DNA of 64,000 nt from Parcubacteria group bacterium (GTDB lineage: Bacteria > Patescibacteriota > Patescibacteriia > UBA1558 > GWA2-36-10). A program made the position numbers and the translations under genes. Where the stretch lies: assembly GCA_003104935.1 (NCBI GenBank), contig PQAE01000007.1, positions 47,221 through 111,220 of the forward strand, in the 5' to 3' direction. Shown piece after piece: positions 4,872 through 48,805 of the stretch. The notes under the pieces were generated by a model that had not been told where the DNA came from, searched no databases, and was given only the letters and a program-made list of their open reading frames with translations. The stretch's first letter is position 1. Every line of letters starts with the position of its first letter.

Positions 4872-4970
4872 ATACTACAGTTTGGCTTTTTATTACGGCG
4901 CACAACACCGCGTATCTGGTTCGCGGACTAAATTATATTTTTATCTTAATAATAATTAAACATAAATTAT

Positions 4971-6519: not shown

Positions 6520-6622
6520 AATTTGCCTGAATAATGCCTGCTATCGCTCGCGAATTTATTTACATCAGCTAACACTGCGTATCTGGTTAATAGAATAAAT
6601 GATTTATTATTAATTTAAAAAT

Positions 6623-7125: not shown

Positions 7126-7491
7126 ATGAATAAAAAATTTAAAAAAATGTTATTCCAAATGTATCGAAGCTTTCCTAATTCTTTTTGGTCAGACTCTGAA
7201 TTAAAAAAAATTGCTACCAAGGAAGCTATAGATGCTCTGGTCGAGGCTCATTATCTTTTTAAGATAAAAGTAGAATTTATTGAAAAAGGAAAGATCAAGG
7301 TGGACGGAGGCACATATATGAATACTGAAAACAAGGCTCTTCATAATCCCGGTTTTAAAGATTGTTACGGACTTGGACCAAACTCAATAAACATAATATA
7401 CGCTCATAGACTACAAATTCTTACTTATTGGATTATTGCACTGACAGTATTTACAACGGTTTTAACAATTTTCACAATTTTTGAAACTTAA
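7126..7491 (+). CDS. hypothetical protein (cassette), C-terminal transmembrane segment
   Basis: 121-aa ORF; hydrophobic C-terminus ILTYWIIALTVFTTVLTIFTIF; flanked by GTTAGGAGA / TCGCCCAAC. Confidence 0.5.
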   Translation: MNKKFKKMLFQMYRSFPNSFWSDSELKKIATKEAIDALVEAHYLFKIKVEFIEKGKIKVDGGTYMNTENKALHNPGFKDCYGLGPNSINIIYAHRLQILTYWIIALTVFTTVLTIFTIFET

Positions 7492-7547
7492 CATCGCCCA
7501 ACACCGGATATCCGAGGATCGAGCTAGAATAAAATTATTAAAAAAAT

Positions 7548-8090: not shown

Positions 8091-8239
8091 TTTTATTCTT
8101 TACGCTCGCTCCTCTACATCCCTTCGCCTCCTAATATGATGTTGGCTTTTAAAAGCCAAATATTATATCATATTAGTAGGCTCGGGACGTCGGATATCCT
8201 GGCCTGTTAGGCGAAATTTACTCATCTTTTTATTAAAAT

Positions 8240-8752
8240 ATGCCAATTTACTTTTCAGTTGATCGTAATAAAACCTTACAAAAAGGAACAGAGATTGCTT
8301 TAATTCAGCACAATGATATTAGTCCAGTAGAGCTACAAAATTATATAAATACGCTGTTTCCAGATGGAGTAACGAATCACGGTGAAAGATATATGTTGCA
8401 ACCATGTCCGGCAAATCAAGTTAATTCCGTAATTGAACTGATTTTTGAATATGAAAGACGGAATAATTTCATAAGCTGCCCTTCTAGAATGCAATCTGTA
8501 TTTGCCTTTGATAATCTTGAATCAGCAAAAAAATTTCGCGAAATATACGGGAACAATCAAGGCGCTATAGTAAAAATTGACGCAATCTCTGCTTTCAAAG
8601 CTGATATGAATTTATTAACTTTAAAAGATTCATTATTACAACTGTCTTATAATGCTCATAAATATTGGAAAGGTGAAGCCTCTGATAGTCCATTTTGGGA
8701 ACATCTATTGATTCCGCCAGTTAAAGTAATTGATATAATAAAAGATGAGTAA
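8240..8752 (+). CDS. hypothetical protein (cassette)
   Basis: 170-aa ORF in the array, bounded by GTTAGGCGA (8206) and CTCGCCCAAC (8755-8764). Confidence 0.5.
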   Translation: MPIYFSVDRNKTLQKGTEIALIQHNDISPVELQNYINTLFPDGVTNHGERYMLQPCPANQVNSVIELIFEYERRNNFISCPSRMQSVFAFDNLESAKKFREIYGNNQGAIVKIDAISAFKADMNLLTLKDSLLQLSYNAHKYWKGEASDSPFWEHLLIPPVKVIDIIKDE

Positions 8753-8841
8753 ACCTCGCCCAACACCGGATATCCGAGGAGCGAGCTAGAATAAAATTAT
8801 TAAATAAAAGTAATATGCTTCATAAATAATAAATACAAAAT

Positions 8842-9066: not shown

Positions 9067-9209
9067 TACTTTTATTCCTTGACGCTCACTCCTCTACATC
9101 CCTTCGCCTCCTAATATGATGTTGGCTTTAAAAAGCCAAATATTATATCATATTAGTAGGCTCGGGACGTCGGATATCCTGAACCGTTAGCTGAAATATT
9201 TTAAATTTA

Positions 9210-9470: not shown

Positions 9471-9588
9471 AATTTAAAATACATCGCCCAACACCGCGTA
9501 TGCGCTTAGAGAAATACCCCTATTTGACAAGGTTTTTAATCTATGATAATGTGTGTAATACAAAGTATTACAATTAATATATAAATAT

Positions 9589-28072: not shown

Positions 28073-29038
28073 ATGGAAATCAACAAACTCACTAGTCGCG
28101 CCATCCTAACCGCTGTCCAACAAGCGACTAATATTTTAGTTATCGCTCATAAAAAACCGGATGGTGATACTCTGGGTTCCAACCTAGCCTTTACCAAATA
28201 TCTGCTTAGTGTCGGTAAAAAATTTACCAGCTTTTGCCTACACCCGGCACCATCCCACCTAGCCTTTCTACCTAATAGCCATCTGATCAGTAATGATCAC
28301 CTCACCTTTAGCCAAACTTTTGACCTGGTTATTTTGCTGGATTCCAGTAATTTAGAATATGCCGGCGTTGACAAGCTCATGACCGCACTCCGGCCGGGTT
28401 ATAAAATAATTAATATTGACCACCATGTATCCAATACTATGTTTGGCGATATTAATCTGGTGATCTATGAAGCCTCTTCTACCGCCGAGGTGGTCTACCG
28501 TCTTTTTAAAGACTGGGACATAGACTGGAGTGCGGGTATCGCTTCTTGCCTGGCCTGCGGCATGATCACCGACACCGGCGGATTTAAAAATCCTGCTACC
28601 AACTATATTACACTGCTGGCCGCTTCCGATTTAAAAAGCAAAGGAGCAAATATCCATCAGATTACCAAACAAGCTCTAGGTAGTACAAAGCTCAATAATC
28701 TCCGTTTGTGGGGACGGGCTCTAGAGCGGCTCAGGGACGTGCCACACTATAATCTGATTTATACTTGGCTGACTGAACAGGATTTTACAGAATGCGCTAC
28801 GGATGAATCGGCCGTGGACGGACTGTCAAACTTTTTGCATATTATCAAGGAGGGAAAAATAATTATGGTTCTGCGCCAAAGCAAGGTCGATACCATCAAG
28901 GGGTCACTGCGCACTACCAGTAATATTGACCTGACAAAAATAGCGGAAATTTTCGGTGGCGGCGGACACAAAAAGGCCGCCGGTTTCAGCTTGTCAGGCC
29001 GGCTAGAATGTAATGATGGTCAGTTAATTATCAAATAG
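28073..29038 (+). CDS. nrnA: DHH/DHHA1 bifunctional oligoribonuclease / pAp phosphatase
   Basis: NIDHHVSNTMFGD (DHH) and GGGHKKAAGF (DHHA1 GGGH). Confidence 0.75.
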   Translation: MEINKLTSRAILTAVQQATNILVIAHKKPDGDTLGSNLAFTKYLLSVGKKFTSFCLHPAPSHLAFLPNSHLISNDHLTFSQTFDLVILLDSSNLEYAGVDKLMTALRPGYKIINIDHHVSNTMFGDINLVIYEASSTAEVVYRLFKDWDIDWSAGIASCLACGMITDTGGFKNPATNYITLLAASDLKSKGANIHQITKQALGSTKLNNLRLWGRALERLRDVPHYNLIYTWLTEQDFTECATDESAVDGLSNFLHIIKEGKIIMVLRQSKVDTIKGSLRTTSNIDLTKIAEIFGGGGHKKAAGFSLSGRLECNDGQLIIK

Positions 29039-29953
29039 GAAAATCTTACTTAATAATTCTTTCCTTAATTCCCAAGTATTGGCGTGTTTCAGCACACCGA
29101 GGTACGACGGTGCGTTATTTTTATTTACTAAGCGTAAAATTCTTCTCTTTGTCTTAGTTCGTAAAACTCTATAATGCGGCAAGGTCACATAGCCCAAAAA
29201 ATCTATACCTTGACTGACTTTTCTGATACTTATTTTCCCTGGGTGTATATCTAATCGTAATTGATCCTTTAAAAATGTGTTTAATTCTTTCAAAATATTT
29301 GCTAAATAACCTTTATCTTTATGCAAAATTATAAAATCGTCACAATAACGAATATAAAATTTCTGTTTTAACCCGTGTTTTACAAATTGATCTAATTCAT
29401 TTAGATAAATATTGCCAAAAAGCTGACTAGTTACATTGCCTAAGGGTAGTCCCTTATTATCTGCCGAAGAAAAACTATTAATTATTTTCTTAATTAACCA
29501 CATAACATCGACTTCTTCCACTCTATTCTCTAACAAAGCTAATAGTATCTTATGATCTATATTATTGAAAAACTTCTTGATATCACATTTTAAAGCATAG
29601 ATCTTTTGGCTATAATTCAGGCTCGCTCTAAGCACAAAATTTCCTAATCGTTTAACCCCCTTGTGCGTGCCTTTTCCTATCCGACATGAATAAGAATCAT
29701 ATATAAATTGCTTGTTAAAAATATGATATAATATTCTATATAAAGCTTGATGAACCACTCGATCTCGCACCCCTGCTTTATGGATATGCCTGAGCTTGGG
29801 GTCACAAACATAAAAGGCCTGATAAGGTGCGTGATTATAAGTCTTGTCCACTAATTCTTGGTGAAGTTGAAAAATATTATCTTCAAGATTAAACTCAAAT
29901 TCCTGTGTTTCCACCTTTCTGGTCTTACCCCTTTTAAATTCACGCCAGGCCAA
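29024..29953 (-). CDS. diversity-generating retroelement reverse transcriptase (DGR-1); N-terminus lacks an ATG in the conserved frame
   Basis: RT motifs YALKCDIKKFFNNIDH, GLPLGNVTSQLFGNIYLNELD (the DGR-type xGxxxSQ rather than QGxxxSP) and YIRYCDDFIIL; ~50% identical to the RT at 45002-45988. The ORF-track start is TTG. Confidence 0.85.
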   Translation of the reverse strand: MAWREFKRGKTRKVETQEFEFNLEDNIFQLHQELVDKTYNHAPYQAFYVCDPKLRHIHKAGVRDRVVHQALYRILYHIFNKQFIYDSYSCRIGKGTHKGVKRLGNFVLRASLNYSQKIYALKCDIKKFFNNIDHKILLALLENRVEEVDVMWLIKKIINSFSSADNKGLPLGNVTSQLFGNIYLNELDQFVKHGLKQKFYIRYCDDFIILHKDKGYLANILKELNTFLKDQLRLDIHPGKISIRKVSQGIDFLGYVTLPHYRVLRTKTKRRILRLVNKNNAPSYLGVLKHANTWELRKELLSKIFLFDN

Positions 29954-30027
29954 AAATAAATTATCTAAAGAAATAACTTCATTAAAAAGACTATTATGAT
30001 TATACCCCCCCCCCTCATAAGATAGGT

Positions 30028-30369
30028 TTGCCTATTGTCCATGAGATTACTAATTTATACCGAGAATTATATATCACCCGCCACCAAATACCAAAGGCCG
30101 AACGCTATGGGATTTTTCAGAAAATAGAAAACACAGTATTAGACTGCCTAGAGATTGCCCTCACCGCGGCCTTGACCGAGAAAGACAAAAAATCAATATT
30201 ATTGGTGAGACTAAAAATAAAGATTGAAATCATACAAAAATTAGTAAGATTAATTAGAGAATTAGAAATTATCTCGGAAAGAAAACATATTCTTTTTTCA
30301 CAAAAATCCATAACAATTTCTAAAATGACCAGTGGCTGGCTTAAGTATTTAAATAAAGAGCCTATCTAG
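30028..30369 (+). CDS. Avd-like four-helix-bundle protein (accessory variability determinant), divergent from the RT
   Basis: 113 aa; PKAERYGIFQKIENTVLDCLEIALTAA resembles the Avd / 23S-IVS four-helix-bundle family; paralogous to 46050-46364 at the protein level only. Confidence 0.6.
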   Translation: MPIVHEITNLYRELYITRHQIPKAERYGIFQKIENTVLDCLEIALTAALTEKDKKSILLVRLKIKIEIIQKLVRLIRELEIISERKHILFSQKSITISKMTSGWLKYLNKEPI

Positions 30370-30385: not shown

Positions 30386-30511
30386 GGAAACTTCTGCGCG
30401 ACCCCGCAAGTTGTCGTTGGCGTTATCCGGATTGTACCAGTTGACGTTCAGCTTGCTGTTGTCGCTGTTCCAGTTCACGTTCGGCACGTTACCATTGCGG
30501 TTACGCGAACC
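30386..30511 (-). repeat. DGR-1 template repeat (TR1)
   Basis: 126 bp matching 30840-30965 with about 20 mismatches; every mismatch is a T on the plus strand, i.e. an A on the transcribed minus strand. Confidence 0.85.
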
Positions 30512-30836: not shown

Positions 30837-31523
30837 TTAGGAAACTACTGCGCGACCCCGCAAGCCGTCGTCGGCGCTATCCGGATGGCACCAGTCGACG
30901 CACAGCTTGCCGAGGCCGCTGCTCCAGTACACGCACGGCACGCTACCATTGCGGTGACGCGAACCGGCGCAGAGCGTGGTGTTCTGGATGTCCAGATGCT
31001 TGTTGGTCTCCGAGTAGTATTTCAACTCGTAGACCAGTCTTTCCAGCAAAGTGATGCTGGAGATTTTTCGCTTCTGGAGATCATTGGCCGAGAGATTCTT
31101 CAGCTCTTCGTCTGCTTCCACGCGGTCGCGGACACGGATGGCGTAGGACGCCTCGGTGTTGCGATCGTTGTTAGGCACATCTTTGTCCAGATCATTTGTG
31201 TATGACCAAGACTTGAAGGCCTTGGAGCAGGCTTGGAAAGCCTGATTGATGGTCAGACCCTGGGGGATGAAGAGGACTCTGGTGAAGTCTTCTTGCTCTT
31301 CGGGAATGGAGACATCCGAGAAGTCCACGGACAGACGGAAGTACTTGCGGTAGAACTCCTGCCATTCCTCTTGGATGGAGTTGATGGCGAAGGGGTTTTG
31401 GCGCTGAGCAAAGAGATCCAGCTCCCGCGGCGTGATGACTCCGCTCTTGATCTTGAGCAAAATATCGCTCATGGTACCAAGCACAGTGCCCGGCACCATA
31501 CCGACCGTCGCCTGCTTAGGCAT
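30837..31523 (-). CDS. DGR-1 target (variable) protein with a C-terminal C-type-lectin/FGE-like variable region
   Basis: C-terminus ...CAGSRHRNGSVPCVYWSSGLGKLCVDWCHPDSADDGLRGRAVVS is encoded by VR1 at 30840-30965, up to the stop at 30837. Confidence 0.8.
   Translation of the reverse strand: MPKQATVGMVPGTVLGTMSDILLKIKSGVITPRELDLFAQRQNPFAINSIQEEWQEFYRKYFRLSVDFSDVSIPEEQEDFTRVLFIPQGLTINQAFQACSKAFKSWSYTNDLDKDVPNNDRNTEASYAIRVRDRVEADEELKNLSANDLQKRKISSITLLERLVYELKYYSETNKHLDIQNTTLCAGSRHRNGSVPCVYWSSGLGKLCVDWCHPDSADDGLRGRAVVS
30840..30965 (-). repeat. DGR-1 variable repeat (VR1)
   Basis: Covers the 3' end of the target ORF; differs from TR1 only at TR adenine positions; GC-rich IMH-like 3' end CTTGCGGGGTCGCGCAG. 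Confidence 0.85.
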
Positions 31524-31627
31524 GATCAGTTTCCTTTATTTTGAGGTACAATTCTAGGTATTTCCTAGAACATATAATAATATCATATATTCACGATTTT
31601 GTCAATAGTTGCTAGTCCCCTATTATT

Positions 31628-42147: not shown

Positions 42148-44358
42148 CTAGTGGCGATTAAAGCGCGGACGGCGGTCATGATCGCGGGTCGGACGCCGCG
42201 GACGATCTACATAACCCTCCGGACGGGGCAAAAGCGCCTTGATGGACAGGCCGACGCGGCCTTTTTCCTTGTCCACTTCCATTACTTTTACCTTAACTTT
42301 ATCGCCCAGTTTCAAAACATCGCTGATTTTCTCTACGCGGGTATAAGAGATCTCGGAAATATGCACCATGCCGTCCTTACCGGGTAAAAGCTGGGCAATG
42401 GCTCCGATTTCGGCCCCGGTATTTTTATCCGTAACAATACGGACTATTTCACCGTCATAAATCTCGCCTACTTGAAGTTCTTTGACGATATTTTCAATCC
42501 ACTCTTTGGCCCGGCGCGCACCGTCCTCGTCGGTAGAAGTGATCATCACTAATCCATCTTGTTCTACGTCGATGGTGACACCGCATTTTTCGATAATTTC
42601 ATTGATTACTTTGCCGCCACTGCCGATAACATCGCGGATTTTTTCCGGATCAATACGCAGAGTAGTAATGCGGGGAGCATATTGGGAAAGTTCTGGCCGG
42701 GGCTGAGCGATCACGGCGTCCATCACATCCAAAACTTGATGGCGGGCTTTTTTAGCACCGGCTAAAGCTTCTTCTAAAACCTTGTAGGCTACACCGCCGA
42801 GCTTGATGTCTAATTGGATGGCGGTAATGCCGTTTCTGGTACCGGCTACTTTAAAATCCATATGACCGGAATGGTCCTCAATACCCTGAATATCGGTCAG
42901 GATCTGATATTTATTTTTATCATTATCATCAACTACTAGCCCCATGGCAATGCCAGCCACGGCGGCTTTGATCGGCACCCCGGCATCCATCAAAGATAAA
43001 CTGGAACCACAAACTGAAGCCTGGGAAGAAGAACCGTTTGATCCTAACACCTCGGAAACAACGCGGATGGTATAGGGAAAATCCTCATCCGCCGGCAATA
43101 CCGGTTCAATAGCTTTTTCCGCCAAAGCCCCGTGGCCGATTTCCCGGCGTCCGGGACCACGCAAAGGCCGTACTTCTCCCACGGAAAATCCGGGAAAGTT
43201 ATAATGATGCATATATTTCTTGGTGCCGGACTCTTCCATAGTATCCAAAGTCTGTTCGTCGCCCGGAGCGCCCAGGGTTACCACGGACAACACTTGCGTT
43301 TCGCCACGATTAAATAAGGCGCTGCCATGGGTACGCGGTAACAGTGCGACTTCGGCCGAAAGATTTCTGATTTCATCAAATTTTCTTTTGTCCGGTCTTT
43401 GTTTTTTTTGCAGAACTAAAGATTTAAAGGCTCTGGTTAGAGCTTCATCAATCATAGACACTCCCATCGCTCGCATATCTTTGGTAACTTCATTATCGGC
43501 CTTGAGCACGGCATCTATTTTTTCAGTAATAGCTGTAATAGCGGCCTTAGTTTTGGATTTATCGGGATTAAAACAATCCTCCAGATTTTCCTGAGCCAAA
43601 AGTTCTTCCACTTTAGCACTGACCTTATCGCGCAGAGCTTGTTTTTCCGGATCTAATTCGGTTTCCACCTTACGCTCACCCACTTCACTGATGATCTGCT
43701 CGATAAAAGGCATGATTTTTTTGATATGCCGTCCGGCAAACTCAATTCCGGCAAACATATCATCCTCCGAGACCTGCTGGGCGCCGGCTTCGATCATTAT
43801 CACTTCTTCTTTATTGCCGACGACAAATAATTCCAAATCACTTTTTGCTTTAGCCTCCACCGTCGGGTTCAAAACCCACTCCGTGCCGATCCGTCCGACC
43901 TGGACACCGGCCAAAGGGCCACCCCAGGGGATAGAGGAAATACCCAAGGCAATAGAAGAAGCAATGACCGCGGGAAAATCGGGGTCATTGATCCCATCAT
44001 AAGATAAAACCGTGACTACCACCTGCACATCATTACGTTCACTCTCCTTAAATAAGGGACGGATAGAACGATCGATCAGGCGGGCGGTCAAAACTGCCTC
44101 GTCGGTAGCCCGACCTTCGCGCTTGATAAAACGCGAACCCTTGATCTTGCCGGCGGCATAGAGCTTTTCTTCATAATCGACCATCAGCGGAAAGTAATCG
44201 ATGCCTTCGCGGATGGCAGACGAGCTCACGGCAGTAGCTAAAACTACAGTATCGCCGTAACTTACTGTACAGGACCCTTGGGCCTGCTGGGCTAGTTTGC
44301 CGACCTCTACTTTGAGCTCTTGGCCGGCCACTTCCATATTAAATTGTTTGATTGACAT
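42148..44358 (-). CDS. pnp: polynucleotide phosphorylase
   Basis: Two RNase PH domains, KH (GSGGKVINEI) and S1; ...RPLRGPGRREIGHGALAEKA. Start taken at MSIKQFNMEVAG. Confidence 0.9.
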   Translation of the reverse strand: MSIKQFNMEVAGQELKVEVGKLAQQAQGSCTVSYGDTVVLATAVSSSAIREGIDYFPLMVDYEEKLYAAGKIKGSRFIKREGRATDEAVLTARLIDRSIRPLFKESERNDVQVVVTVLSYDGINDPDFPAVIASSIALGISSIPWGGPLAGVQVGRIGTEWVLNPTVEAKAKSDLELFVVGNKEEVIMIEAGAQQVSEDDMFAGIEFAGRHIKKIMPFIEQIISEVGERKVETELDPEKQALRDKVSAKVEELLAQENLEDCFNPDKSKTKAAITAITEKIDAVLKADNEVTKDMRAMGVSMIDEALTRAFKSLVLQKKQRPDKRKFDEIRNLSAEVALLPRTHGSALFNRGETQVLSVVTLGAPGDEQTLDTMEESGTKKYMHHYNFPGFSVGEVRPLRGPGRREIGHGALAEKAIEPVLPADEDFPYTIRVVSEVLGSNGSSSQASVCGSSLSLMDAGVPIKAAVAGIAMGLVVDDNDKNKYQILTDIQGIEDHSGHMDFKVAGTRNGITAIQLDIKLGGVAYKVLEEALAGAKKARHQVLDVMDAVIAQPRPELSQYAPRITTLRIDPEKIRDVIGSGGKVINEIIEKCGVTIDVEQDGLVMITSTDEDGARRAKEWIENIVKELQVGEIYDGEIVRIVTDKNTGAEIGAIAQLLPGKDGMVHISEISYTRVEKISDVLKLGDKVKVKVMEVDKEKGRVGLSIKALLPRPEGYVDRPRRPTRDHDRRPRFNRH

Positions 44359-44524
44359 AAATGTCTCCTCAGACTGACTAGAGAATTGATGCGACAAATA
44401 TCAACGCGGTAAATTTTACCGGACTAATATCTGCCTACCAATACTCTGCCCCAGTCTATTAATTAATGAATTAAAGGCCCCGCCAGCTCCGCCACCCGGC
44501 AGATCAAACAGGGCCGCTATATTA

Positions 44525-44881
44525 TTACTCTTTTACTTCTTCGTTCTCTTCGATGACTTCCTCTTCCGGGGTTTCCAAACCCAGGTCAATAGCGTCCTCC
44601 AACTTTTGGCCGCTCTTGATCTTTAGTTTTAAAATCTTGACCAGCTTGGTAAAGCGCTTTTCATCTTCGCGCTCCAGATAGCGGAGCAGTTTGTGACGGA
44701 GCGATACTTTGGCCAACAAACCGCGGCGGGAAGAATAATCTTTTTTGTTTTCCCGCAAGTGTTTGGTCAGTTCTTTTATTTCTTCGGTCAAAATCGCAAT
44801 TTGGACTTCAGTGGAACCGGTATCGCTCTTGTGGGTCTTGAACTTCTCGATAATTTGCTGTTTTTTTCTCTTTTCTAACAT
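44525..44881 (-). CDS. rpsO: 30S ribosomal protein S15 with an acidic C-terminal extension
   Basis: ...GSTEVQIAILTEEIKELTKHLRENKKDYSSRRGLLAKVSLRHKLLRYL; upstream of pnp. Confidence 0.85.
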   Translation of the reverse strand: MLEKRKKQQIIEKFKTHKSDTGSTEVQIAILTEEIKELTKHLRENKKDYSSRRGLLAKVSLRHKLLRYLEREDEKRFTKLVKILKLKIKSGQKLEDAIDLGLETPEEEVIEENEEVKE

Positions 44882-45001
44882 ATTTTTCCTTTTACGCCTT
44901 TGACCGAGCTTAGCCCCGAGTTAGCGATGTCGGGCCAGACCAAGCCAGAGGTAATTAATTAAGTGTCTATAAACTAACATTTTGAAGGGGAAAAGTCAAT
45001 C

Positions 45002-45988
45002 CTACAAAGGAAAGTCTAAAAGGCCTTTTAACTTCATAGTATTACCGTAACCAAATAGCCCTAAATACGATTGTTTAGTAAATTCATTGTAGTTTTTTAA
45101 TTTGAGCCTGGTCAACATTCTTTTTTTACTTGTTGTCCTCAAAACACGATGATCTGTAAAATGTACCCACCCTAAAAAATCTATACCGGAATACAGGGTT
45201 TTAATAAAAACCTTATCGGGATGTAATTGTAATCGCAAATCATTATTTAAAAAATGTTTTATCACGCCCAAAATATTTTCTAACCATTTTTTGTCCTTAG
45301 ATAATATAACAAAATCATCGGCATATCGAATATAATATTTGGCTTTTAGCTTATGTTTTACAAACTGGTCAAATGTATTCATATAAACATTGACTAGTAG
45401 TTGTGATGTCAAATTTCCTAAAGGTAAACCTTTGTTATTGATGTGAAAACTATCAATCACTCTATTTAATAGCCATAAAATATTTTCATCAGCTATATAC
45501 TGACTTAAAATATCTATTAATATACTATGATCAATATTGGCAAAAAATTTCTTAATATCTCCTTTCAACACCCAAGCTGTTTTGGTATGATTTTGAGATG
45601 CTCGATAAGCAAAATTACAAAACTTGTTTATGGCCTTGTGAGTCCCTTTACCTAAACGGCAGGAATAAGAATCAGCAATAAATGTCGTGTCAAAAAAAGG
45701 ATACAAAACCCTATAGATAGCGTGATGTAATAGTCTATCGCGAACACTGGCCTTATGAATGTTTCTTGGTTTAGGGTCAGAAATATTGAAAGCCTGATAA
45801 TCCGAATGCCAATAAGTCTTATTTTTCAAATCACTATGTAGAGCTATAATATTACTCATTAAATCTAATTCAAATTCTTGGACATCCCGACGACTTCTTT
45901 TGCCTTTGATAAACTCCTGCCAGGCTAAAAGCAAATTTTCCAAAGAAATGATATAATCATAACTATAATTAAATTTAATTTTGCTCAT
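45002..45988 (-). CDS. diversity-generating retroelement reverse transcriptase (DGR-2)
   Basis: GLPLGNLTSQLLVNVYMNTFD (xGxxxSQ), YIRYADDFVIL; ATG start preceded by a G10-TATAAT element. Confidence 0.85.
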   Translation of the reverse strand: MSKIKFNYSYDYIISLENLLLAWQEFIKGKRSRRDVQEFELDLMSNIIALHSDLKNKTYWHSDYQAFNISDPKPRNIHKASVRDRLLHHAIYRVLYPFFDTTFIADSYSCRLGKGTHKAINKFCNFAYRASQNHTKTAWVLKGDIKKFFANIDHSILIDILSQYIADENILWLLNRVIDSFHINNKGLPLGNLTSQLLVNVYMNTFDQFVKHKLKAKYYIRYADDFVILSKDKKWLENILGVIKHFLNNDLRLQLHPDKVFIKTLYSGIDFLGWVHFTDHRVLRTTSKKRMLTRLKLKNYNEFTKQSYLGLFGYGNTMKLKGLLDFPL

Positions 45989-46049
45989 ATGACAGATTAT
46001 ACCCCCCCCCCGTCTATTACCAGTACTTCAAAAACTAAAAAGTGTTTAT

Positions 46050-46364
46050 TTGCTATGGTATAGCTATTACCAAGTTTTGCCAAAAAATCATCGCTATTCT
46101 CTGGGAATAAAAGTTGATAATTTACTGACGGAAACAATAGAATCAGTGGCTACGGCTATTTTCTTGGTACCCAACGACAAATTACCATACGTGCGACGAG
46201 GCATTCAGAAATTAGACACCTTAAAAATATTTCTAATGATTCTCTGGGAAACGAAATCTTTAGACGATAATAAATATATCGCCTTGTCAGTAAAAATAGA
46301 CGAGGTTGGCAAAATGTTGGGTGGCTGGCAAGGACAGATATTAAAACAAAACTCTCCTAAATAA
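46050..46364 (+). CDS. Avd-like four-helix-bundle protein, divergent from RT-2
   Basis: 104 aa; PKNHRYSLGIKVDNLLTETIESVATA; homologous to 30028-30369. Confidence 0.6.
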   Translation: MLWYSYYQVLPKNHRYSLGIKVDNLLTETIESVATAIFLVPNDKLPYVRRGIQKLDTLKIFLMILWETKSLDDNKYIALSVKIDEVGKMLGGWQGQILKQNSPK

Positions 46365-46385
46365 ATTAGGAGAGAAACGAAGTAT

Positions 46386-46507
46386 TTGCAGACCGCCGCG
46401 GGGTTGTTGTCGTTGAAGTTGTTGTCCAGGTAGTTGTAGTTCCAGTTCCACTGCTGGCCATTCCAGTAGAGATAGCGGACGTACAAGTTGCCGTTGGAGT
46501 TGCGGTA
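46386..46507 (-). repeat. DGR-2 template repeat (TR2)
   Basis: 122 bp matching 46929-47050; all 14 mismatches are T on the plus strand (A on the minus strand). Confidence 0.85.
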
Positions 46508-46818
46508 TTATATATAATGCCGTCTATAGCACTGCCCATAGACCCGTTCGACTCCATCCCGCGATGCGGGACTTCGCTCAGGGTCATCCCGAATTTATTG
46601 AAGGATGAATACTCGCCGGGCTGTATCGTATTTGTGATCTAAAATCACTTAGCACTATATACCAAGTATCTTCATTTTTTGAGTTTCTAGGCATCTCTCT
46701 ATCTTAAACCGCAGTCTAAGCTATTCTCAATGCATAGATACTGGATTCGGCCGTAAAAAACCTTGATCTTTTACTGATTAGCCTAGTACCAATTATACTT
46801 TATCATAAATTGAAGAAG

Positions 46819-46855
46819 CCTCATACATTACTGTATGAGGCTTCTCGTTTTTGTA
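46819..46855 (+). terminator. plus-strand rho-independent terminator
   Basis: GAAGCCTCATACATTACTGTATGAGGCTTC followed by TCGTTTTTG. Confidence 0.55.
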
Positions 46856-46924
46856 TAGCTACAAAGTCTAAGGTCAAAGGACTTAAGGGTAAGTCCTAAG
46901 AACCAAAGCACTAAGTGCTATATG

Positions 46925-47503
46925 TTACTTGCAGACCGCCGCGGGGTTGCCGTCGTTGAAGTAGCTGCCCAGGTAGTAGTAGTTCCAGTTCCACTGCTGG
47001 CCATCCCAGTAGAGATAGCGGACGCACAAGTCGCCGTAGGAGCTGCGGTAGATGGTACCCCAGAAGTAGGTGTACTTTCCTTTCCACTCCTCGGGAATGA
47101 ACTGGGGATTTTTCAGATACCAATCCAAGAGATTGGCATTGAAGACCGGCTGGCCCTGGAGCTCCTTACGGAGATCGTGGCCTATGATCCAGCGACCGTC
47201 CTTCTTCCTCTCGGAGAGGTAGAGGCTGATCTTGGTGGGATCAAACTCCAACTTCCCACCACGGATGTGCTCCTCGACCTTCCAGCCGTCAGGCACGAAG
47301 GGGTTGGCGTCGAGGTCGACGATGTGTTTGGTGACGACGATCTGGGCCAGGCCGTGAAGCAGGGCTTTGATGTCGATGAGTTGAGGGTACTGACCCAGCA
47401 AAGTGATTTCTGCCGGAGTAAAATCCTTCGCCTCCAGAGCGTTCATCAGCTGATGAGTCTGACCCTCAGAATAAGAAGACATGTCTTCTCTCCTTTTTGG
47501 CAC
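46925..47503 (-). CDS. DGR-2 target (variable) protein with a Tyr/Trp-rich C-terminus
   Basis: C-terminus ...CVRYLYWDGQQWNWNYYYLGSYFNDGNPAAVCK is encoded by VR2. Confidence 0.75.
   Translation of the reverse strand: MPKRREDMSSYSEGQTHQLMNALEAKDFTPAEITLLGQYPQLIDIKALLHGLAQIVVTKHIVDLDANPFVPDGWKVEEHIRGGKLEFDPTKISLYLSERKKDGRWIIGHDLRKELQGQPVFNANLLDWYLKNPQFIPEEWKGKYTYFWGTIYRSSYGDLCVRYLYWDGQQWNWNYYYLGSYFNDGNPAAVCK
46929..47050 (-). repeat. DGR-2 variable repeat (VR2)
   Basis: Covers the 3' end of the target ORF and differs from TR2 only at TR adenine positions. Confidence 0.85.
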
Positions 47504-47856
47504 ATGTGCCTTGATTCGCCAGAGGGCTCCATTTGGTAGCCATAGCTACAAAAGTCCAATCTTCTTTACCGTCACCCTGAATTTATTTCAGGGTCTGGTA
47601 TGTGAGACTCTGAAACAAGTTCAGAGTGACCATCATTTATTAGGCTTTTGTAGCTATGGCTAGCCAAAATATGCAAGTAAGATATTAATGTACTAACATA
47701 TAATGTTAGCATATTTTATGAATTTTGTCAATAGTAGGTAAATACCCTATATAAAGCCTGTTACTCTGGAGTCTGTAGGACGATAGAGTCTATATGTATA
47801 TAATCTTATGGATTCTATCGCCGCGCTAAGCGCGGCTCCAGAATGACAAATAAAAA

Positions 47857-47973
47857 TGCGGCCAGCCACGCTTGTTCACGGTCATTGCGAGCCCGTCTCA
47901 GGGCGTGGCAATCTAAATGTTTTAGATTGCTTCGTCGCCGTAGGCTCCTCGCAATGACTATTAATTTCCGTGG
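47857..47973. repeat. nested palindromic element; its inner part is shared with 31950-32020
   Basis: GCGGCCAGCCACG...GTCATTGCGAG...TTTTAGATTGCTTCG...CTCGCAATGAC...CGTGGCTGGCCGC. Confidence 0.5.
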
Positions 47974-48025
47974 CTGGCCGCCGCAACTTTTTCTATTTTG
48001 TGTCGCTTTATGTTAAGATATAAGT

Positions 48026-48805
48026 ATGTCTGGAATAAAAGAATATACAAAATATCTCAAAGCCGGTGGTCTAAAAAAACAAACTGTCGAAAATTACCTC
48101 TGGCACACCAGTAAATTTTTGAATTGGCTGGGCACTAATGACTTAAATACGGAAAAAATTAAATCTTATCAGAAAGACTTAGTCCGCTCCGCTTATAGTC
48201 CGGCTACCGTCAACCTTCATCTCATTAGTATCAATAAATATTTAGACTATCGCGGGCTAAAATCAAAGCTTCATCTTGTGGCCGAGCCAACTAAAGAACT
48301 TGATTATCTAAATAAACGCCAGCTGTCTCTCTTTGTGGAGGCCGTGCCCAATACTTCGAAGTTTATTCATCTGCGCGACCGGGCGCTGCTGGAAATACTC
48401 TATACTACCGGGCTTAAAGTGGGGCAGATTATTTTACTAAAAAAGCATCATATTGATACCGTCAAGCAAGAAATAATTTTAGATAATAAAAAACAACTCC
48501 TCCTGCCACCTCTAGCCTGGTCGGCTCTGAAAAAATATCTGGACAGAAGAGTTGACGATATAGATTATTTATTTGTCAATCTGGATAGAGCACAAAAGGG
48601 TAAAGAAATGATGCTATCTATCCGCTCAGTCGAGAGAATTATTGAAAAATACGGCCGCCAGATCGGCTTGGAGGTAACACCGCAAATTTTACGCAATACT
48701 CTGGCCAAAAATCTAAAAAATGACGGCGCCGACCGCGGTCAATTACAAGCACAGCTGCATTTTCATACCAAACTGGGTGCGGAAAATTATCTCAAGAGAA
48801 TTTAA
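48026..48805 (+). CDS. tyrosine recombinase-like protein (small, possibly degenerate active site)
   Basis: 259 aa; N-terminal SAM-like core-binding region; RDRALLEILYTTGLKVGQ (Arg), QILRNTLA (R present, H replaced by Q), ...ENYLKRI (Tyr). Confidence 0.55.
   Translation: MSGIKEYTKYLKAGGLKKQTVENYLWHTSKFLNWLGTNDLNTEKIKSYQKDLVRSAYSPATVNLHLISINKYLDYRGLKSKLHLVAEPTKELDYLNKRQLSLFVEAVPNTSKFIHLRDRALLEILYTTGLKVGQIILLKKHHIDTVKQEIILDNKKQLLLPPLAWSALKKYLDRRVDDIDYLFVNLDRAQKGKEMMLSIRSVERIIEKYGRQIGLEVTPQILRNTLAKNLKNDGADRGQLQAQLHFHTKLGAENYLKRI

What the first reader, a model, noticed from the sequence alone, without database searches (positions are those of the whole stretch)
45002..47503. Second complete DGR (RT-2, divergent Avd-2, TR2, VR2) with a different target family
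TR2 (46386-46507) and VR2 (46929-47050) are 122 bp each and have 14 mismatches, all T in TR on the plus strand (A on the minus strand). The target C-terminus is Tyr/Trp/Asn-rich (YLYWDGQQWNWNYYYLGSYFNDGNPAAVCK), unlike the DGR-1 target. The RT-2/TR2 versus RT-1/TR1 nucleotide sequences are unrelated. The window therefore carries two independent cognate DGRs, i.e. two separately diversified ligand-binding proteins.
Basis: seen in the sequence. Interest (0 to 1): 0.7.

Follow-up and report, generated by a model that had tools for sequence, protein, structure and literature searches.

The report
Second retroelement that rewrites a gene
This is a genuine second diversity-generating retroelement in a Patescibacteria genome, an ordinary member of a known kind, but its relatives share three features I found no description of: a structured template RNA, a poly-G tract and a short-palindrome array.

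Summary

- A roughly 230-nt covariation-supported structured leader RNA lies upstream of TR. One leader segment pairs with the sequence just 3' of TR.
- A G8-G14 homopolymer sits at the avd-RT junction of both DGRs here and in 36 related cassettes.
- A short-palindrome array follows VR.

Caveats: Avd-2 lacks a canonical start for its first ~11 residues unless the tract is C9 or C12. A 63-66-nt insertion interrupts the leader. Activity is inferred, not shown.

The parts
45002..45988 (-). RT-2, a DGR reverse transcriptase of 328 aa. It has YADD and the LGNLTSQ form of the (I/L/V)GxxxSQ motif. The counterpart of bRT R74 is conserved.
   Evidence: Pfam RVT_1 1.1e-26. Best PDB hit is bRT 8ub7_A at 8.7e-41, against group II RTs at about 1e-18. 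PHROG RT 7e-105.
45996..46001 (-). TATAAT -10-like box directly after the G tract and 7 nt before the RT-2 ATG. A leaderless RT mRNA is inferred.
   Evidence: Sequence. In relatives a TAnnnT follows the tract in 17 of 32, and the RT start lies exactly 7 nt further on in 12 of those.
46002..46011 (.). G10 (minus strand) / C10 (plus strand) homopolymer between the divergent avd and RT starts.
   Evidence: This tract and its DGR-1 twin (30005-30014) are the only G/C runs of 7 or more in the 64-kb window. In 556 kb of related loci, 36 of 40 G/C runs of 8 or more lie at the same junction. Lengths run from 6 to 14.
46050..46364 (+). Avd-2 accessory protein, 104-aa ORF from TTG. Homology to the Avd N-terminus continues in frame upstream to about 46011, but with no canonical start codon.
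   Evidence: Pfam bAvd 6e-10, 40.0 bits, equal to the cut-off. NCBIfam DivGenRetAVD 9e-15, below its cut-off. PHROG Avd 1e-10. With C9 or C12, ATG 45989 gives a 124-aa protein covering bAvd profile positions 4-105 instead of 15-105.
46342..46374 (-). Hairpin CTCTCCTAA/TTAGGAGAG followed by TTTTGTTTT, starting 9 nt after TR and overlapping the avd stop codon. Read as an intrinsic terminator and the 3' end of the template RNA.
   Evidence: Terminator scan. Conserved in 39 related cassettes, with changes in the upper stem.
46375..46382 (-). CTTCGTTT, the 3' flank of TR that pairs with the leader segment at 46670-46677.
   Evidence: 9-bp helix on alignment A7: 88.9% of cells paired against 45-56% for slid partners, and 17 compensatory cells against 1-7. 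The helix is also present in the MFE fold.
46383..46507 (-). TR2 template repeat, with 38 A. 23 codons carry A at position 1 or 2, and 13 of them are AAC or AAT.
46508..46790 (-). Structured leader of the template RNA with 8 helices. It contains the invariant ACTTGG at 46662-46667 and the pairing segment AAATGAAG at 46670-46677. A 63-66-nt insertion at about 46540-46605 interrupts it.
   Evidence: RNAalifold: 56 pairs, 41 with compensatory changes. 96.6% of cells paired against 38-48% for slid partners; 0 of 500 shuffles reach the observed value. nhmmer places it at 46792-46606 plus 46542-46500. No Rfam match.
46797..46805 (-). Extended -10 promoter (TG-n-TAAAGT) for the template RNA. The predicted start is near G46790.
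   Evidence: A TAnnnT lies at the same position in 50 of 51 related loci, directly after the target terminator.
46814..46845 (.). Perfect 14-bp hairpin, read as the terminator of the target gene.
46850..46924 (-). Array of short CTTWG/CTTGG palindromic units directly 3' of VR. Read as a candidate target-recognition or cruciform element.
   Evidence: 3.7 motifs per 90 nt in cassettes against 0.31 in the background. Also present after orphan homologues, at 3.0 per 90 nt.
46926..47050 (-). VR2 variable repeat, covering residues 145-185 of the target.
46925..47482 (-). Target-2 protein, 185 aa from ATG 47482 (the longest ORF runs from GTG 47503). It has an N-terminal helical part and a ~135-aa core domain ending in VR.
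47532..47667 (.). 136-bp element with 29-nt terminal inverted repeats inside the target 5' UTR. It looks like a MITE insertion.
47703..47731 (-). Target promoter TTGACA-17-TAACAT with TG. It lies in a 46-nt block that is 78% identical to the block upstream of target-1 (31569-31614).

Best explanation
DGR-2 is a chromosomal diversity-generating retroelement of the Patescibacteria lineage. Its gene order is target/VR, then TR, then avd on the reverse strand, then RT.

Shown:
- An intact RT of the DGR type.
- An Avd homologue.
- A 125-nt TR/VR pair that differs only at template adenines.
- A target whose family-wide hypervariable positions are exactly the TR adenine codons.
- The same cassette in about 40 other Patescibacteria genomes.

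Inferred mechanism:
1. An extended -10 promoter just after the target terminator drives a roughly 450-nt non-coding RNA, about 380 nt in relatives.
2. This RNA consists of a structured ~230-nt leader, TR, an 8-9-nt flank and a terminator hairpin.
3. The flank pairs back to a conserved A-rich leader segment next to an invariant ACTTGG. This encloses TR and puts its 3' end against the leader core.
4. The pairing plays the part of the TR-Sp helix that positions the priming nucleotide in the Bordetella phage element, but here the partner lies upstream of TR instead of downstream.
5. RT-2 with Avd-2 copies TR into cDNA, misincorporating opposite adenines.
6. The cDNA replaces VR. VR is marked by an A-free GC-rich 3' end and a downstream palindrome array.

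The result is up to about 3e21 variants of the last 41 residues of a small, probably C-type-lectin-like binding protein. The G10 tract between avd and RT probably tunes or switches expression of the machinery.
For: TR/VR pair:
- 12 of 12 mismatches lie at A, P 1.5e-7, with no other differences.

RT and Avd:
- RT-2 is closest to bRT 8ub7 (8.7e-41), with the R74 counterpart conserved and the LGNLTSQ motif.
- Avd-2 matches the Avd models.

Target family:
- Entropy is 2.46 bits at TR-adenine codons against 0.65 elsewhere, p 2.6e-6. The residue spectra (D, S, Y, G, N, C) are those expected from AAC mutagenesis.
- The computed repertoire is 2.7e21 proteins.

Cassette conservation:
- The same cassette, with adenine-biased TR/VR pairs, occurs in about 40 of 82 related loci.
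- The gene order equals published architecture B3 (PMC5758913).

Leader RNA:
- 56 pairs, 41 of them compensatory. 96.6% of cells are paired against 38-48% for slid partners.
- Leader to 3'-flank helix: 88.9% paired against 45-56%, 0 of 500 shuffles for compensatory cells. It also appears in the MFE fold.
- TR/VR homology ends exactly where that helix starts.
- The BPP-1 precedent for a TR-proximal priming helix is in PMC6182149.

Transcription signals:
- A promoter at a fixed position in 50 of 51 loci.
- A conserved terminator hairpin.

Fold:
- The fold hit list is dominated by C-type lectin folds, including the DGR targets TvpA and Mtd.
Against: - No direct evidence of activity. There is only one assembled sequence, and an independent Logan contig is identical over 45929-46879 and stops before VR.
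- Avd-2 has TTA where relatives have a TTG start. As assembled (C10) it can only start 11 codons inside the conserved N-terminus. Its Pfam score is exactly at the cut-off and its NCBIfam score is below the cut-off.
- The leader carries a 63-66-nt insertion and the target 5' UTR a 136-bp insertion.
- The long-range helix has only 4 pairs with double changes, which is no more than in shuffles.
- The priming site, the RNA ends and the role of the G tract are inferences.
Confidence: 0.85

Rival explanations
1. DGR-2 is a recently disabled remnant. The cassette was active in the past and left adenine-specific differences, but it can no longer diversify. In this reading Avd-2 has lost its start codon and the template RNA leader and target 5' UTR have been hit by insertions.
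For: - TTA replaces the TTG start seen in relatives, and ATG 45989 is out of frame at C10.
- The annotated Avd covers only bAvd profile positions 15-105.
- A 63-66-nt insertion lies in the leader and a 136-bp inverted-repeat element in the 5' UTR.
- Decayed cassettes with partial leaders and no RT exist in relatives.
- About half of the target homologues have no RT nearby.
Against: - There are no non-adenine differences in 125 nt of TR/VR, so VR was rewritten recently or the pair is under selection.
- The RT ORF is intact with its catalytic motifs.
- The insertion sits at the tip of helix 8, where five relatives also carry extra hairpins.
- A one-base slip in the tract restores a full-length Avd.
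- 8 of 33 related cassettes also lack the canonical Avd start downstream of the tract.
Confidence: 0.2
2. The TR/VR pair is an ordinary partial gene duplication, and the neighbouring RT is an unrelated retroelement such as a group II intron, retron or defence RT.
For: RT-2 also gives sub-threshold matches to group II intron, retron and DRT models.
Against: - All 12 differences lie at adenines (P 1.5e-7).
- The same RT/Avd/TR/VR arrangement recurs in about 40 genomes with adenine-biased differences.
- bRT is by far the best solved relative.
- All intron, retron and DRT scores are far below their cut-offs.
- No intron or retron RNA family is found in the region.
Confidence: 0.01
3. The poly-G tract is a sequencing or assembly artefact, or a neutral low-complexity spacer, with no role in the DGR.
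For: - Homopolymer lengths are error-prone.
- Tract length differs among relatives with no obvious rule.
- In most relatives both start codons lie outside the tract.
Against: - It is present at the same junction in both DGRs of the window and in 36 cassettes from many independent assemblies.
- These are the only G/C runs of 7 or more in 64 kb.
- An independent Logan assembly gives the same C10.
- The tract is kept across cassettes whose RTs are only 50-70% identical.
Confidence: 0.1

Closest known systems
Bordetella phage BPP-1 DGR (mtd-avd-TR-brt; bRT-Avd with DGR RNA)
   Same: - An RT of the same clade (E 8.7e-41 to 8ub7), with the R74 counterpart and the (I/L/V)GxxxSQ motif.
- An Avd accessory protein.
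- Adenine-specific TR to VR differences.
- VR at the 3' end of the target ORF.
- An A-free GC-rich 3' end shared by both repeats, and inverted repeats downstream of VR.
- A short helix involving the sequence just 3' of the cDNA start.
   Different: - It is chromosomal in a Patescibacteria genome, not in a phage.
- avd is inverted and lies between TR and RT.
- Only 8 nt and a terminator hairpin follow TR, in place of the 140-nt Sp region.
- The structured RNA domain and the pairing partner of the TR 3' flank lie upstream of TR.
- The target is a 185-aa protein with no tail-fibre context.
Architecture B3, TR-(avd)-RT, and the CPR set with 'unknown VR' classes (Wu et al. 2018, PMC5758913); DGR clade 2 of Roux et al. 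2021 (PMC8144416)
   Same: - The same gene order, with avd on the reverse strand.
- A Patescibacteria host.
- A small target with no recognisable domain, transmembrane segment or signal peptide, which those papers report as typical of this clade.
   Different: - I could not check which UVR class this VR belongs to, because the supplements are not held.
- Neither paper's text, as far as I could search it, describes the leader RNA, the poly-G tract or the CTTWG array.
C-type lectin-fold DGR variable proteins (Mtd 1yu0, TvpA 2y3c) and other CLec folds
   Same: - VR forms the C-terminal strands and loops.
- Invariant aromatic or aliphatic scaffold residues alternate with variable ones.
   Different: - The domain is smaller, at about 135 aa.
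- Membership of the fold is plausible but not established.
Simple-sequence-repeat contingency loci (poly-G/C tracts in Neisseria, Campylobacter, Haemophilus promoters and 5' coding regions)
   Same: - A G/C homopolymer of 8-14 bp sits between a -10 box and the upstream region, or in a 5' coding region.
- Its length differs between related elements.
- One-base changes switch reading frames: RT-1 at G11 or G8, Avd-2 at C9 or C12.
   Different: - No within-population length variation has been shown.
- In most relatives both start codons lie outside the tract.
- The controlled genes are a mutagenesis machine, not a surface antigen.

Membership tests
Diversity-generating retroelement (DGR) | Reverse transcriptase of the DGR clade with YxDD and the (I/L/V)GxxxSQ motif | tested here: met
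   Best PDB hit is bRT 8ub7_A at 8.7e-41, against about 1e-18 for group II RTs. The alignment shows YADD, LGNLTSQ and the R74 counterpart.
Diversity-generating retroelement (DGR) | TR/VR repeat pair whose differences correspond to adenines in TR | tested here: met
   125 nt with 12 mismatches, all at TR adenines, P 1.5e-7.
Diversity-generating retroelement (DGR) | VR inside a protein-coding target, usually at its 3' end; TR non-coding with AAY-rich codons in the VR frame | tested here: met
   VR covers residues 145-185 of a 185-aa ORF. TR has 13 AAC/AAT codons in that frame and only spurious overlapping ORFs.
Diversity-generating retroelement (DGR) | Accessory variability determinant (Avd) or another accessory gene | tested here: met
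   Pfam bAvd 40.0 bits, equal to the cut-off. NCBIfam DivGenRetAVD 9e-15 but below its cut-off. PHROG Avd 1e-10. Caveat: there is no canonical start for the first ~11 homologous residues.
Diversity-generating retroelement (DGR) | IMH-like A-free GC-rich 3' end of VR, a differing flank after TR, and an inverted repeat downstream of VR | tested here: met
   Both repeats share CCCCGCGGCGGTCTGC. The flanks diverge 2 nt after the last sense codon. Hairpins and a CTTWG palindrome array follow VR only, and a terminator hairpin follows TR only. Their function was not tested.
Diversity-generating retroelement (DGR) | Ongoing mutagenic retrohoming (VR heterogeneity in a population, or cDNA) | not testable with these tools
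   There is only one assembled sequence. The Logan contig is identical and ends 47 nt before VR.
DGR architecture B3, TR-(avd)-RT (Wu et al. 2018) | Order TR, avd on the reverse strand, RT | tested here: met
   Coordinates. The definition is in PMC5758913. The same order is seen in about 40 related loci.
BPP-1-type DGR RNA | Structured spacer (Sp) downstream of TR that binds Avd and supplies the priming nucleotide through a TR-Sp helix | tested here: not met
   Only 8 nt and a terminator hairpin follow TR before the antisense avd. The structured domain and the partner of the TR 3' flank are upstream. It may work in a similar way, but the topology is permuted.
C-type lectin fold DGR variable protein | CLec fold with VR residues on a solvent-exposed binding face | tested here: inconclusive
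   [not shown]
Simple-sequence-repeat phase-variable locus | Homopolymer of at least 7-8 nt in a promoter or 5' coding region whose length changes switch expression, with length polymorphism in populations | tested here: inconclusive
   The tract is present, conserved in position and variable in length between genomes, from 6 to 14. Frame switching was shown in silico for RT-1 and Avd-2. Population polymorphism and the effect on expression are not testable here.

The most novel reading that the evidence does not exclude
In this Patescibacteria DGR lineage the hypermutation machine is itself under a hypermutable switch. On this reading, the conserved G8-G14 tract at the avd-RT junction slips during replication. 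That turns RT on or off in DGR-1-type cassettes, where the ATG is in frame only at G8 or G11. In DGR-2 it does the same for Avd, which is in frame only at C9 or C12. Alternatively, slippage tunes the divergent promoters. Separately, the template RNA uses a permuted architecture in which a structured upstream leader, not a downstream spacer, docks the 3' end of TR for priming.
Probability: 0.3. Interest if true: 0.75.

Novelty: new variant of a known kind. Interest (0 to 1): 0.5.

Why it matters
As a DGR in a Patescibacteria genome this is expected. DGRs are known to be enriched in that group, the gene order is a named architecture, and the genome is already public (Parcubacteria MAG, locus tags C3F02_).

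What adds value is the comparative picture that came out of checking it.

- **RNA model.** Almost all mechanistic knowledge of DGRs comes from one phage element. How other DGRs define their template RNA and prime cDNA synthesis is open. The covariation-supported leader and its pairing with the TR 3' flank give a concrete model with named nucleotides to mutate.
- **Regulation.** How cells restrain a mutator of this power is also open. A conserved slippage-prone tract exactly between the two machinery genes is a direct, checkable candidate.
- **Target family.** The family has thousands of members, no annotation and a confident but nearly orphan fold. It is a good case for defining a new variable-protein scaffold.

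Tried and rejected
- **Sequence searches on the target.** A profile search of the target family against PDB sequences found nothing. Pfam, NCBIfam, PHROGs and PADLOC found nothing for either target.
- **Fold searches.** Foldseek against PDB and BFVD found nothing significant. The afdb50 library was not available.
- **Rfam.** A search of 44900-47900 at E up to 1 returned only chance miRNA and sRNA hits.
- **Look-ups.** RT-2 and target-2 are not on record as exact sequences.
- **Population variation.** The only other assembly of this organism, a 951-bp Logan contig, is identical over 45929-46879. It tells nothing about VR or tract heterogeneity.
- **Translational switch in general.** I tested whether the G tract is a translational switch across relatives. 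In most, both start codons lie outside the tract, and upstream ATGs fall in all three frames about equally. That reading holds only for particular cassettes.
- **Other repeats and leaders.** The repeat at 8091-8217 / 9071-9197 is not a DGR pair, because its mismatches are not adenine-specific. DGR-1 has no leader homologous to that of DGR-2.
- **Insertion boundaries.** I tried to define the cassette's insertion boundaries from a related genome. Only the RT-side end could be placed, at 45004.
- **Literature.** Paul et al. 2017, the supplements of Wu et al. 2018 and a 2026 preprint that mentions both DGRs and poly-G could not be read.
Full report
**1. Checking the observation**

The window holds three long direct repeat pairs. 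The pair at 46383-46507 and 46926-47050 is 125 nt long and 90% identical.

Read base by base, it has 12 mismatches. Every one is T in the first copy on the + strand, that is, A on the - strand. The count of 14 is therefore wrong, but the essential point, adenine specificity, is right.

TR has 38 A in 125 nt. The chance that 12 of 12 differences fall on A is about 1.5e-7. There is no non-adenine difference at all.

The second copy forms the last 41 codons of ORF 46925-47503 (-). Its most likely start is ATG 47482, behind AGGAGA, which gives 185 aa. The first copy is non-coding. In the VR frame it reads YRNSNGNLYVRYLYWNGQQWNWNYNYLDNNFNDNNPAAVCK, with 13 AAC/AAT codons.

The pair at 30386-30511 / 30840-30965 is DGR-1, with 20 mismatches, all at A. 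The pair at 8091 / 9071 is a palindromic element with unbiased mismatches and is not a DGR pair.

**2. The proteins**

ORF 45002-45988 (-) is a reverse transcriptase (RVT_1, 1.1e-26).
- Its best solved relative is the Bordetella phage DGR enzyme bRT (8ub7_A, E 8.7e-41, aligned over residues 10-300). Group II intron RTs follow at about 1e-18.
- The alignment shows YADD, the LGNLTSQ version of the (I/L/V)GxxxSQ motif (L in place of bRT I181), and the counterpart of bRT R74.
- Matches to intron, retron and defence RT models are all far below their cut-offs.

ORF 46050-46364 is an Avd homologue. It scores bAvd 6e-10 at exactly the Pfam cut-off, DivGenRetAVD 9e-15 below the NCBIfam cut-off, and PHROG 'Avd protein of DGR' 1e-10. 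It lies on the + strand, opposite to RT, TR and target. This order, TR-(avd)-RT, is the published architecture B3 (PMC5758913).

DGR-1 (RT 29024-29953, Avd 30028-30369 on +, TR1, VR1, target 30837-31523) has the same layout.
- RT-1 and RT-2 are 52% identical. They are paralogues of one clade, not unrelated.
- The two Avds are 25% identical.
- The two targets are unrelated by BLASTP and by profile-profile comparison (probability 9.9%, and that only in the N-terminal helices).

**3. The target family**

- Target-2 has 745 homologues in the 90%-clustered collection. Nearly all are 180-195 aa, without Pfam domains, and those that carry a source name are Patescibacteria hypotheticals.
- It has 2,890 representatives at 50% clustering with E up to 1e-3.
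- The conserved core is residues ~50-183. A few proteins carry three or four tandem copies.
- In a 120-sequence alignment, the columns matching TR codons with A at position 1 or 2 have mean entropy 2.46 bits. The other VR columns have 0.65 bits (p 2.6e-6). The variable columns show the D/S/Y/G/N/C spectrum expected from AAC mutagenesis.
- Between the variable columns lie nearly invariant G, L, V, R, W and P residues.
- The theoretical repertoire of TR2 is about 2.7e21 proteins.

AlphaFold2 with this alignment gives a confident model: pLDDT 94.6, pTM 0.80. It has three N-terminal helices and a mixed core whose last four strands carry VR.

Foldseek finds nothing significant in PDB or in viral models. 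A sequence profile finds no solved relative.

I conclude that the fold is at most a very divergent C-type lectin variant. Roux et al. anticipated such variants for this clade (PMC8144416).

**4. The cassette elsewhere**

Eighty loci from one-genome-per-species contigs, plus two from a direct look-up, encode relatives of the target.

About 40 of them have an RT2-like gene (50-70% identical) and an inverted Avd2-like gene immediately downstream, in the same order. They also have a TR about 330-410 nt after the stop codon whose differences from VR are mostly at A.

The rest have no RT within 4 kb. Some of these keep partial leader remnants, so they are decayed cassettes.

The window itself is a public MAG: Parcubacteria group bacterium, locus tags C3F02_, with Avd-2 = PWB38659.1. 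In a related genome (76% nt identity) the homology around rpsO stops exactly at the RT-2 stop codon. The cassette is therefore an insertion or a deletion difference there.

**5. The template RNA**

This was not part of the finding.

The ~230 nt upstream of TR are conserved in all cassettes.
- RNAalifold on 25 sequences gives 56 pairs in 8 helices, 41 of them with compensatory changes.
- On the named structure, 96.6% of cells pair, against 38-48% when partners are slid by 1-3 columns. The covariation score is 0.61 against 0.12-0.17. No shuffle out of 500 reaches the observed values.
- No Rfam family matches.

Directly upstream, at a fixed distance, 50 of 51 loci have a TAnnnT box, usually preceded by TG. 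It sits right after the hairpin and T-run that end the target gene. In the window this is TG 46805-46804 plus TAAAGT 46802-46797, which predicts a start near G46790.

Directly after TR comes a conserved hairpin, CTCTCC...GGAGAG, followed by TTTTGTTTT (46374-46342). It overlaps the avd stop codon and scores as an intrinsic terminator.

Between TR and that hairpin, the 8-9 nt TCTTCATTT (CTTCGTTT in the window, 46375-46382) are complementary to the conserved leader segment AAATGAAGA (46670-46677). That segment sits 2 nt before an invariant ACTTGG.
- On 39 sequences this helix is paired in 88.9% of cells, against 45-56% for slid partners.
- It has 17 compensatory cells, against 1-7 for slid partners and 5.4 +/- 1.9 in shuffles (0 of 500).
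- Only 4 pairs show double changes, so the support is moderate.
- The helix also appears in the unconstrained MFE fold of the 451-nt RNA.

TR/VR homology ends exactly at the base before this helix.

In the Bordetella phage element, a 7-bp helix forms between the TR sequence just 3' of the initiation site and the downstream spacer. It positions the priming adenosine Sp A56 (PMC6182149).

The arrangement here looks like the same logic with permuted topology. The docking partner, and probably the priming nucleotide, lies upstream of TR. That step is inference.

In the window the leader is interrupted at about 46540-46605 by a 63-66-nt insertion. It sits at the tip of helix 8, where five relatives also carry extra hairpins.

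**6. The poly-G tract**

On the RT strand, a G10 run (46002-46011) lies between the divergent avd and RT starts. It is followed by TATAAT, then 7 nt, then the RT-2 ATG. DGR-1 has the same G10-TATAATC at 30005-30014.

- These two are the only G/C runs of 7 or more in the 64-kb window.
- In 556 kb of related loci, 36 of 40 G/C runs of 8 or more lie at this junction.
- Lengths range from 6 to 14, most often 9-10.
- A DGR-1-type cassette from another genome has a G9 there.
- In 17 of 32 distinct relatives a TAnnnT follows the tract immediately. In 12 of these the RT start is exactly 7 nt further on, which suggests a leaderless RT mRNA.

Frame analysis:
- RT-1 has no canonical start for its first ~24 homologous residues unless the tract is G8 or G11, which brings ATG 30017 into frame. 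As assembled (G10) it is out of frame.
- Avd-2 has TTA where relatives have the TTG start. ATG 45989 gives a full-length Avd only at C9 or C12. That longer form covers the bAvd profile from position 4 instead of 15.
- In most relatives both starts lie outside the tract. A general role is therefore more likely at the promoter or 5' end than in translation.

I found no paper linking DGRs with homopolymer tracts in the searchable library.

**7. Downstream of VR**

The 75 nt after the stop codon (46924-46850) consist of short CTTWG/CTTGG palindromic units that can form alternative hairpins. The motif occurs 3.7 times per 90 nt after cassette targets and 3.0 after orphan homologues, against 0.31 in the background.

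By position, this array corresponds to the inverted repeat that helps target recognition in the Bordetella element (own knowledge; summarised in PMC5758913). Its function here is untested.

**8. Verdict**

DGR-2 is a real DGR of the Patescibacteria lineage. It is cognate to its own VR, and its target is unrelated to that of DGR-1.

It is an ordinary member of a known kind in terms of gene content. The lineage's RNA organisation, the junction homopolymer and the palindrome array are features I could not find described.

Whether this particular copy is currently active is open. In favour are the perfect adenine specificity and the intact RT. Against are the missing Avd start at C10 and the two insertions.

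Noticed in passing
window 46002-46011 and 30005-30014; related loci L001-L082 and L084: A G/C homopolymer (G10 in both DGRs here, G6-G14 in relatives) sits exactly between the divergent avd and RT starts. These two are the only runs of 7 or more in the window, and 36 of 40 runs of 8 or more in 556 kb of related loci lie at this junction. The tract is often followed by TAnnnT, 7 nt and the RT ATG.
   Followed up: partly
window 29954-30020 (DGR-1): RT-1 has no canonical start for its first ~24 conserved residues as assembled (G10). ATG 30017 comes into frame only at G8 or G11, and at those lengths an upstream ATG also comes into frame with Avd-1. DGR-1 may be in an OFF phase, or the tract length may be mis-assembled.
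   Followed up: partly
window 46500-46792 (-); alignment A6: A conserved ~230-nt structured RNA leader lies upstream of TR (8 helices, 41 covarying pairs). It has its own extended -10 promoter and no Rfam family. Two of its hairpins carry the same GATTACGGTTT-like loop.
   Followed up: yes
window 46850-46924 (-): An array of CTTWG/CTTGG short palindromes lies directly after the target stop codon. It is about 12-fold enriched over background in all cassettes and is also kept after orphan target homologues.
   Followed up: partly
window about 46540-46605, 47532-47667 and 47858-47981: Three small palindromic, MITE- or REP-like elements lie around DGR-2: one inside the TR leader, one inside the target 5' UTR (29-nt terminal inverted repeats), and one between the target promoter and the integrase gene. 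They contain the 'CTGAGCGAAG' / 'TCATTGCGAG' type of motif, which from my own recollection is common in uncultured-bacteria genomes.
   Followed up: partly
window 31569-31614 and 47695-47740: A 46-nt block, 78% identical between the two sites, lies upstream of both DGR targets. It contains TTGACA-17-TAnnAT on the minus strand, which suggests a shared promoter or regulator site for the two targets.
   Followed up: partly
related loci, e.g. L009, L015, L026, L083, L085, L086; partial leaders in L080, L046, L035, L051, L042, L029, L024: About half of the homologues of both target families have no RT or Avd within 4 kb. Some keep leader fragments and so are decayed cassettes. Others keep the CTTWG array and could be diversified in trans.
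   Followed up: partly
L088 and L089 compared with window 42191-45004: A related genome (76% nt identity across rpsO-pnp) lacks the cassette, and homology ends at the RT-2 stop codon. A tyrosine recombinase gene (48026-48805) flanks the other side of DGR-2, so the cassette may sit on a small mobile segment.
   Followed up: partly
proteins P0121, P0122, P0123, P0124: Some relatives carry three or four tandem copies of the ~135-aa target core domain in one protein of 480-800 aa.
   Followed up: no
L087 (Logan SRR5381729), matching window 45929-46879: The independent assembly of the same organism breaks 47 nt before VR2. Heterogeneity in VR or the repetitive array could cause such a break. The contig is otherwise 100% identical, including C10.
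   Followed up: no
window 8091-8217 / 9071-9197, and 4887-4930 / 6554-6597 / 9473-9516, and 7490-7546 / 8752-8808: Several intergenic repeat families lie in the 4.8-9.6 kb region between small ORFs. One is a 127-nt palindromic element in two copies (91% identical). They are unrelated to the DGRs.
   Followed up: no
window 46925-47482 and 30837-31523 (N-termini): The N-terminal helical parts of the two otherwise unrelated targets give a weak profile-profile match (E 0.003, probability 10%). This may reflect a shared docking module, but the match is not significant.
   Followed up: no
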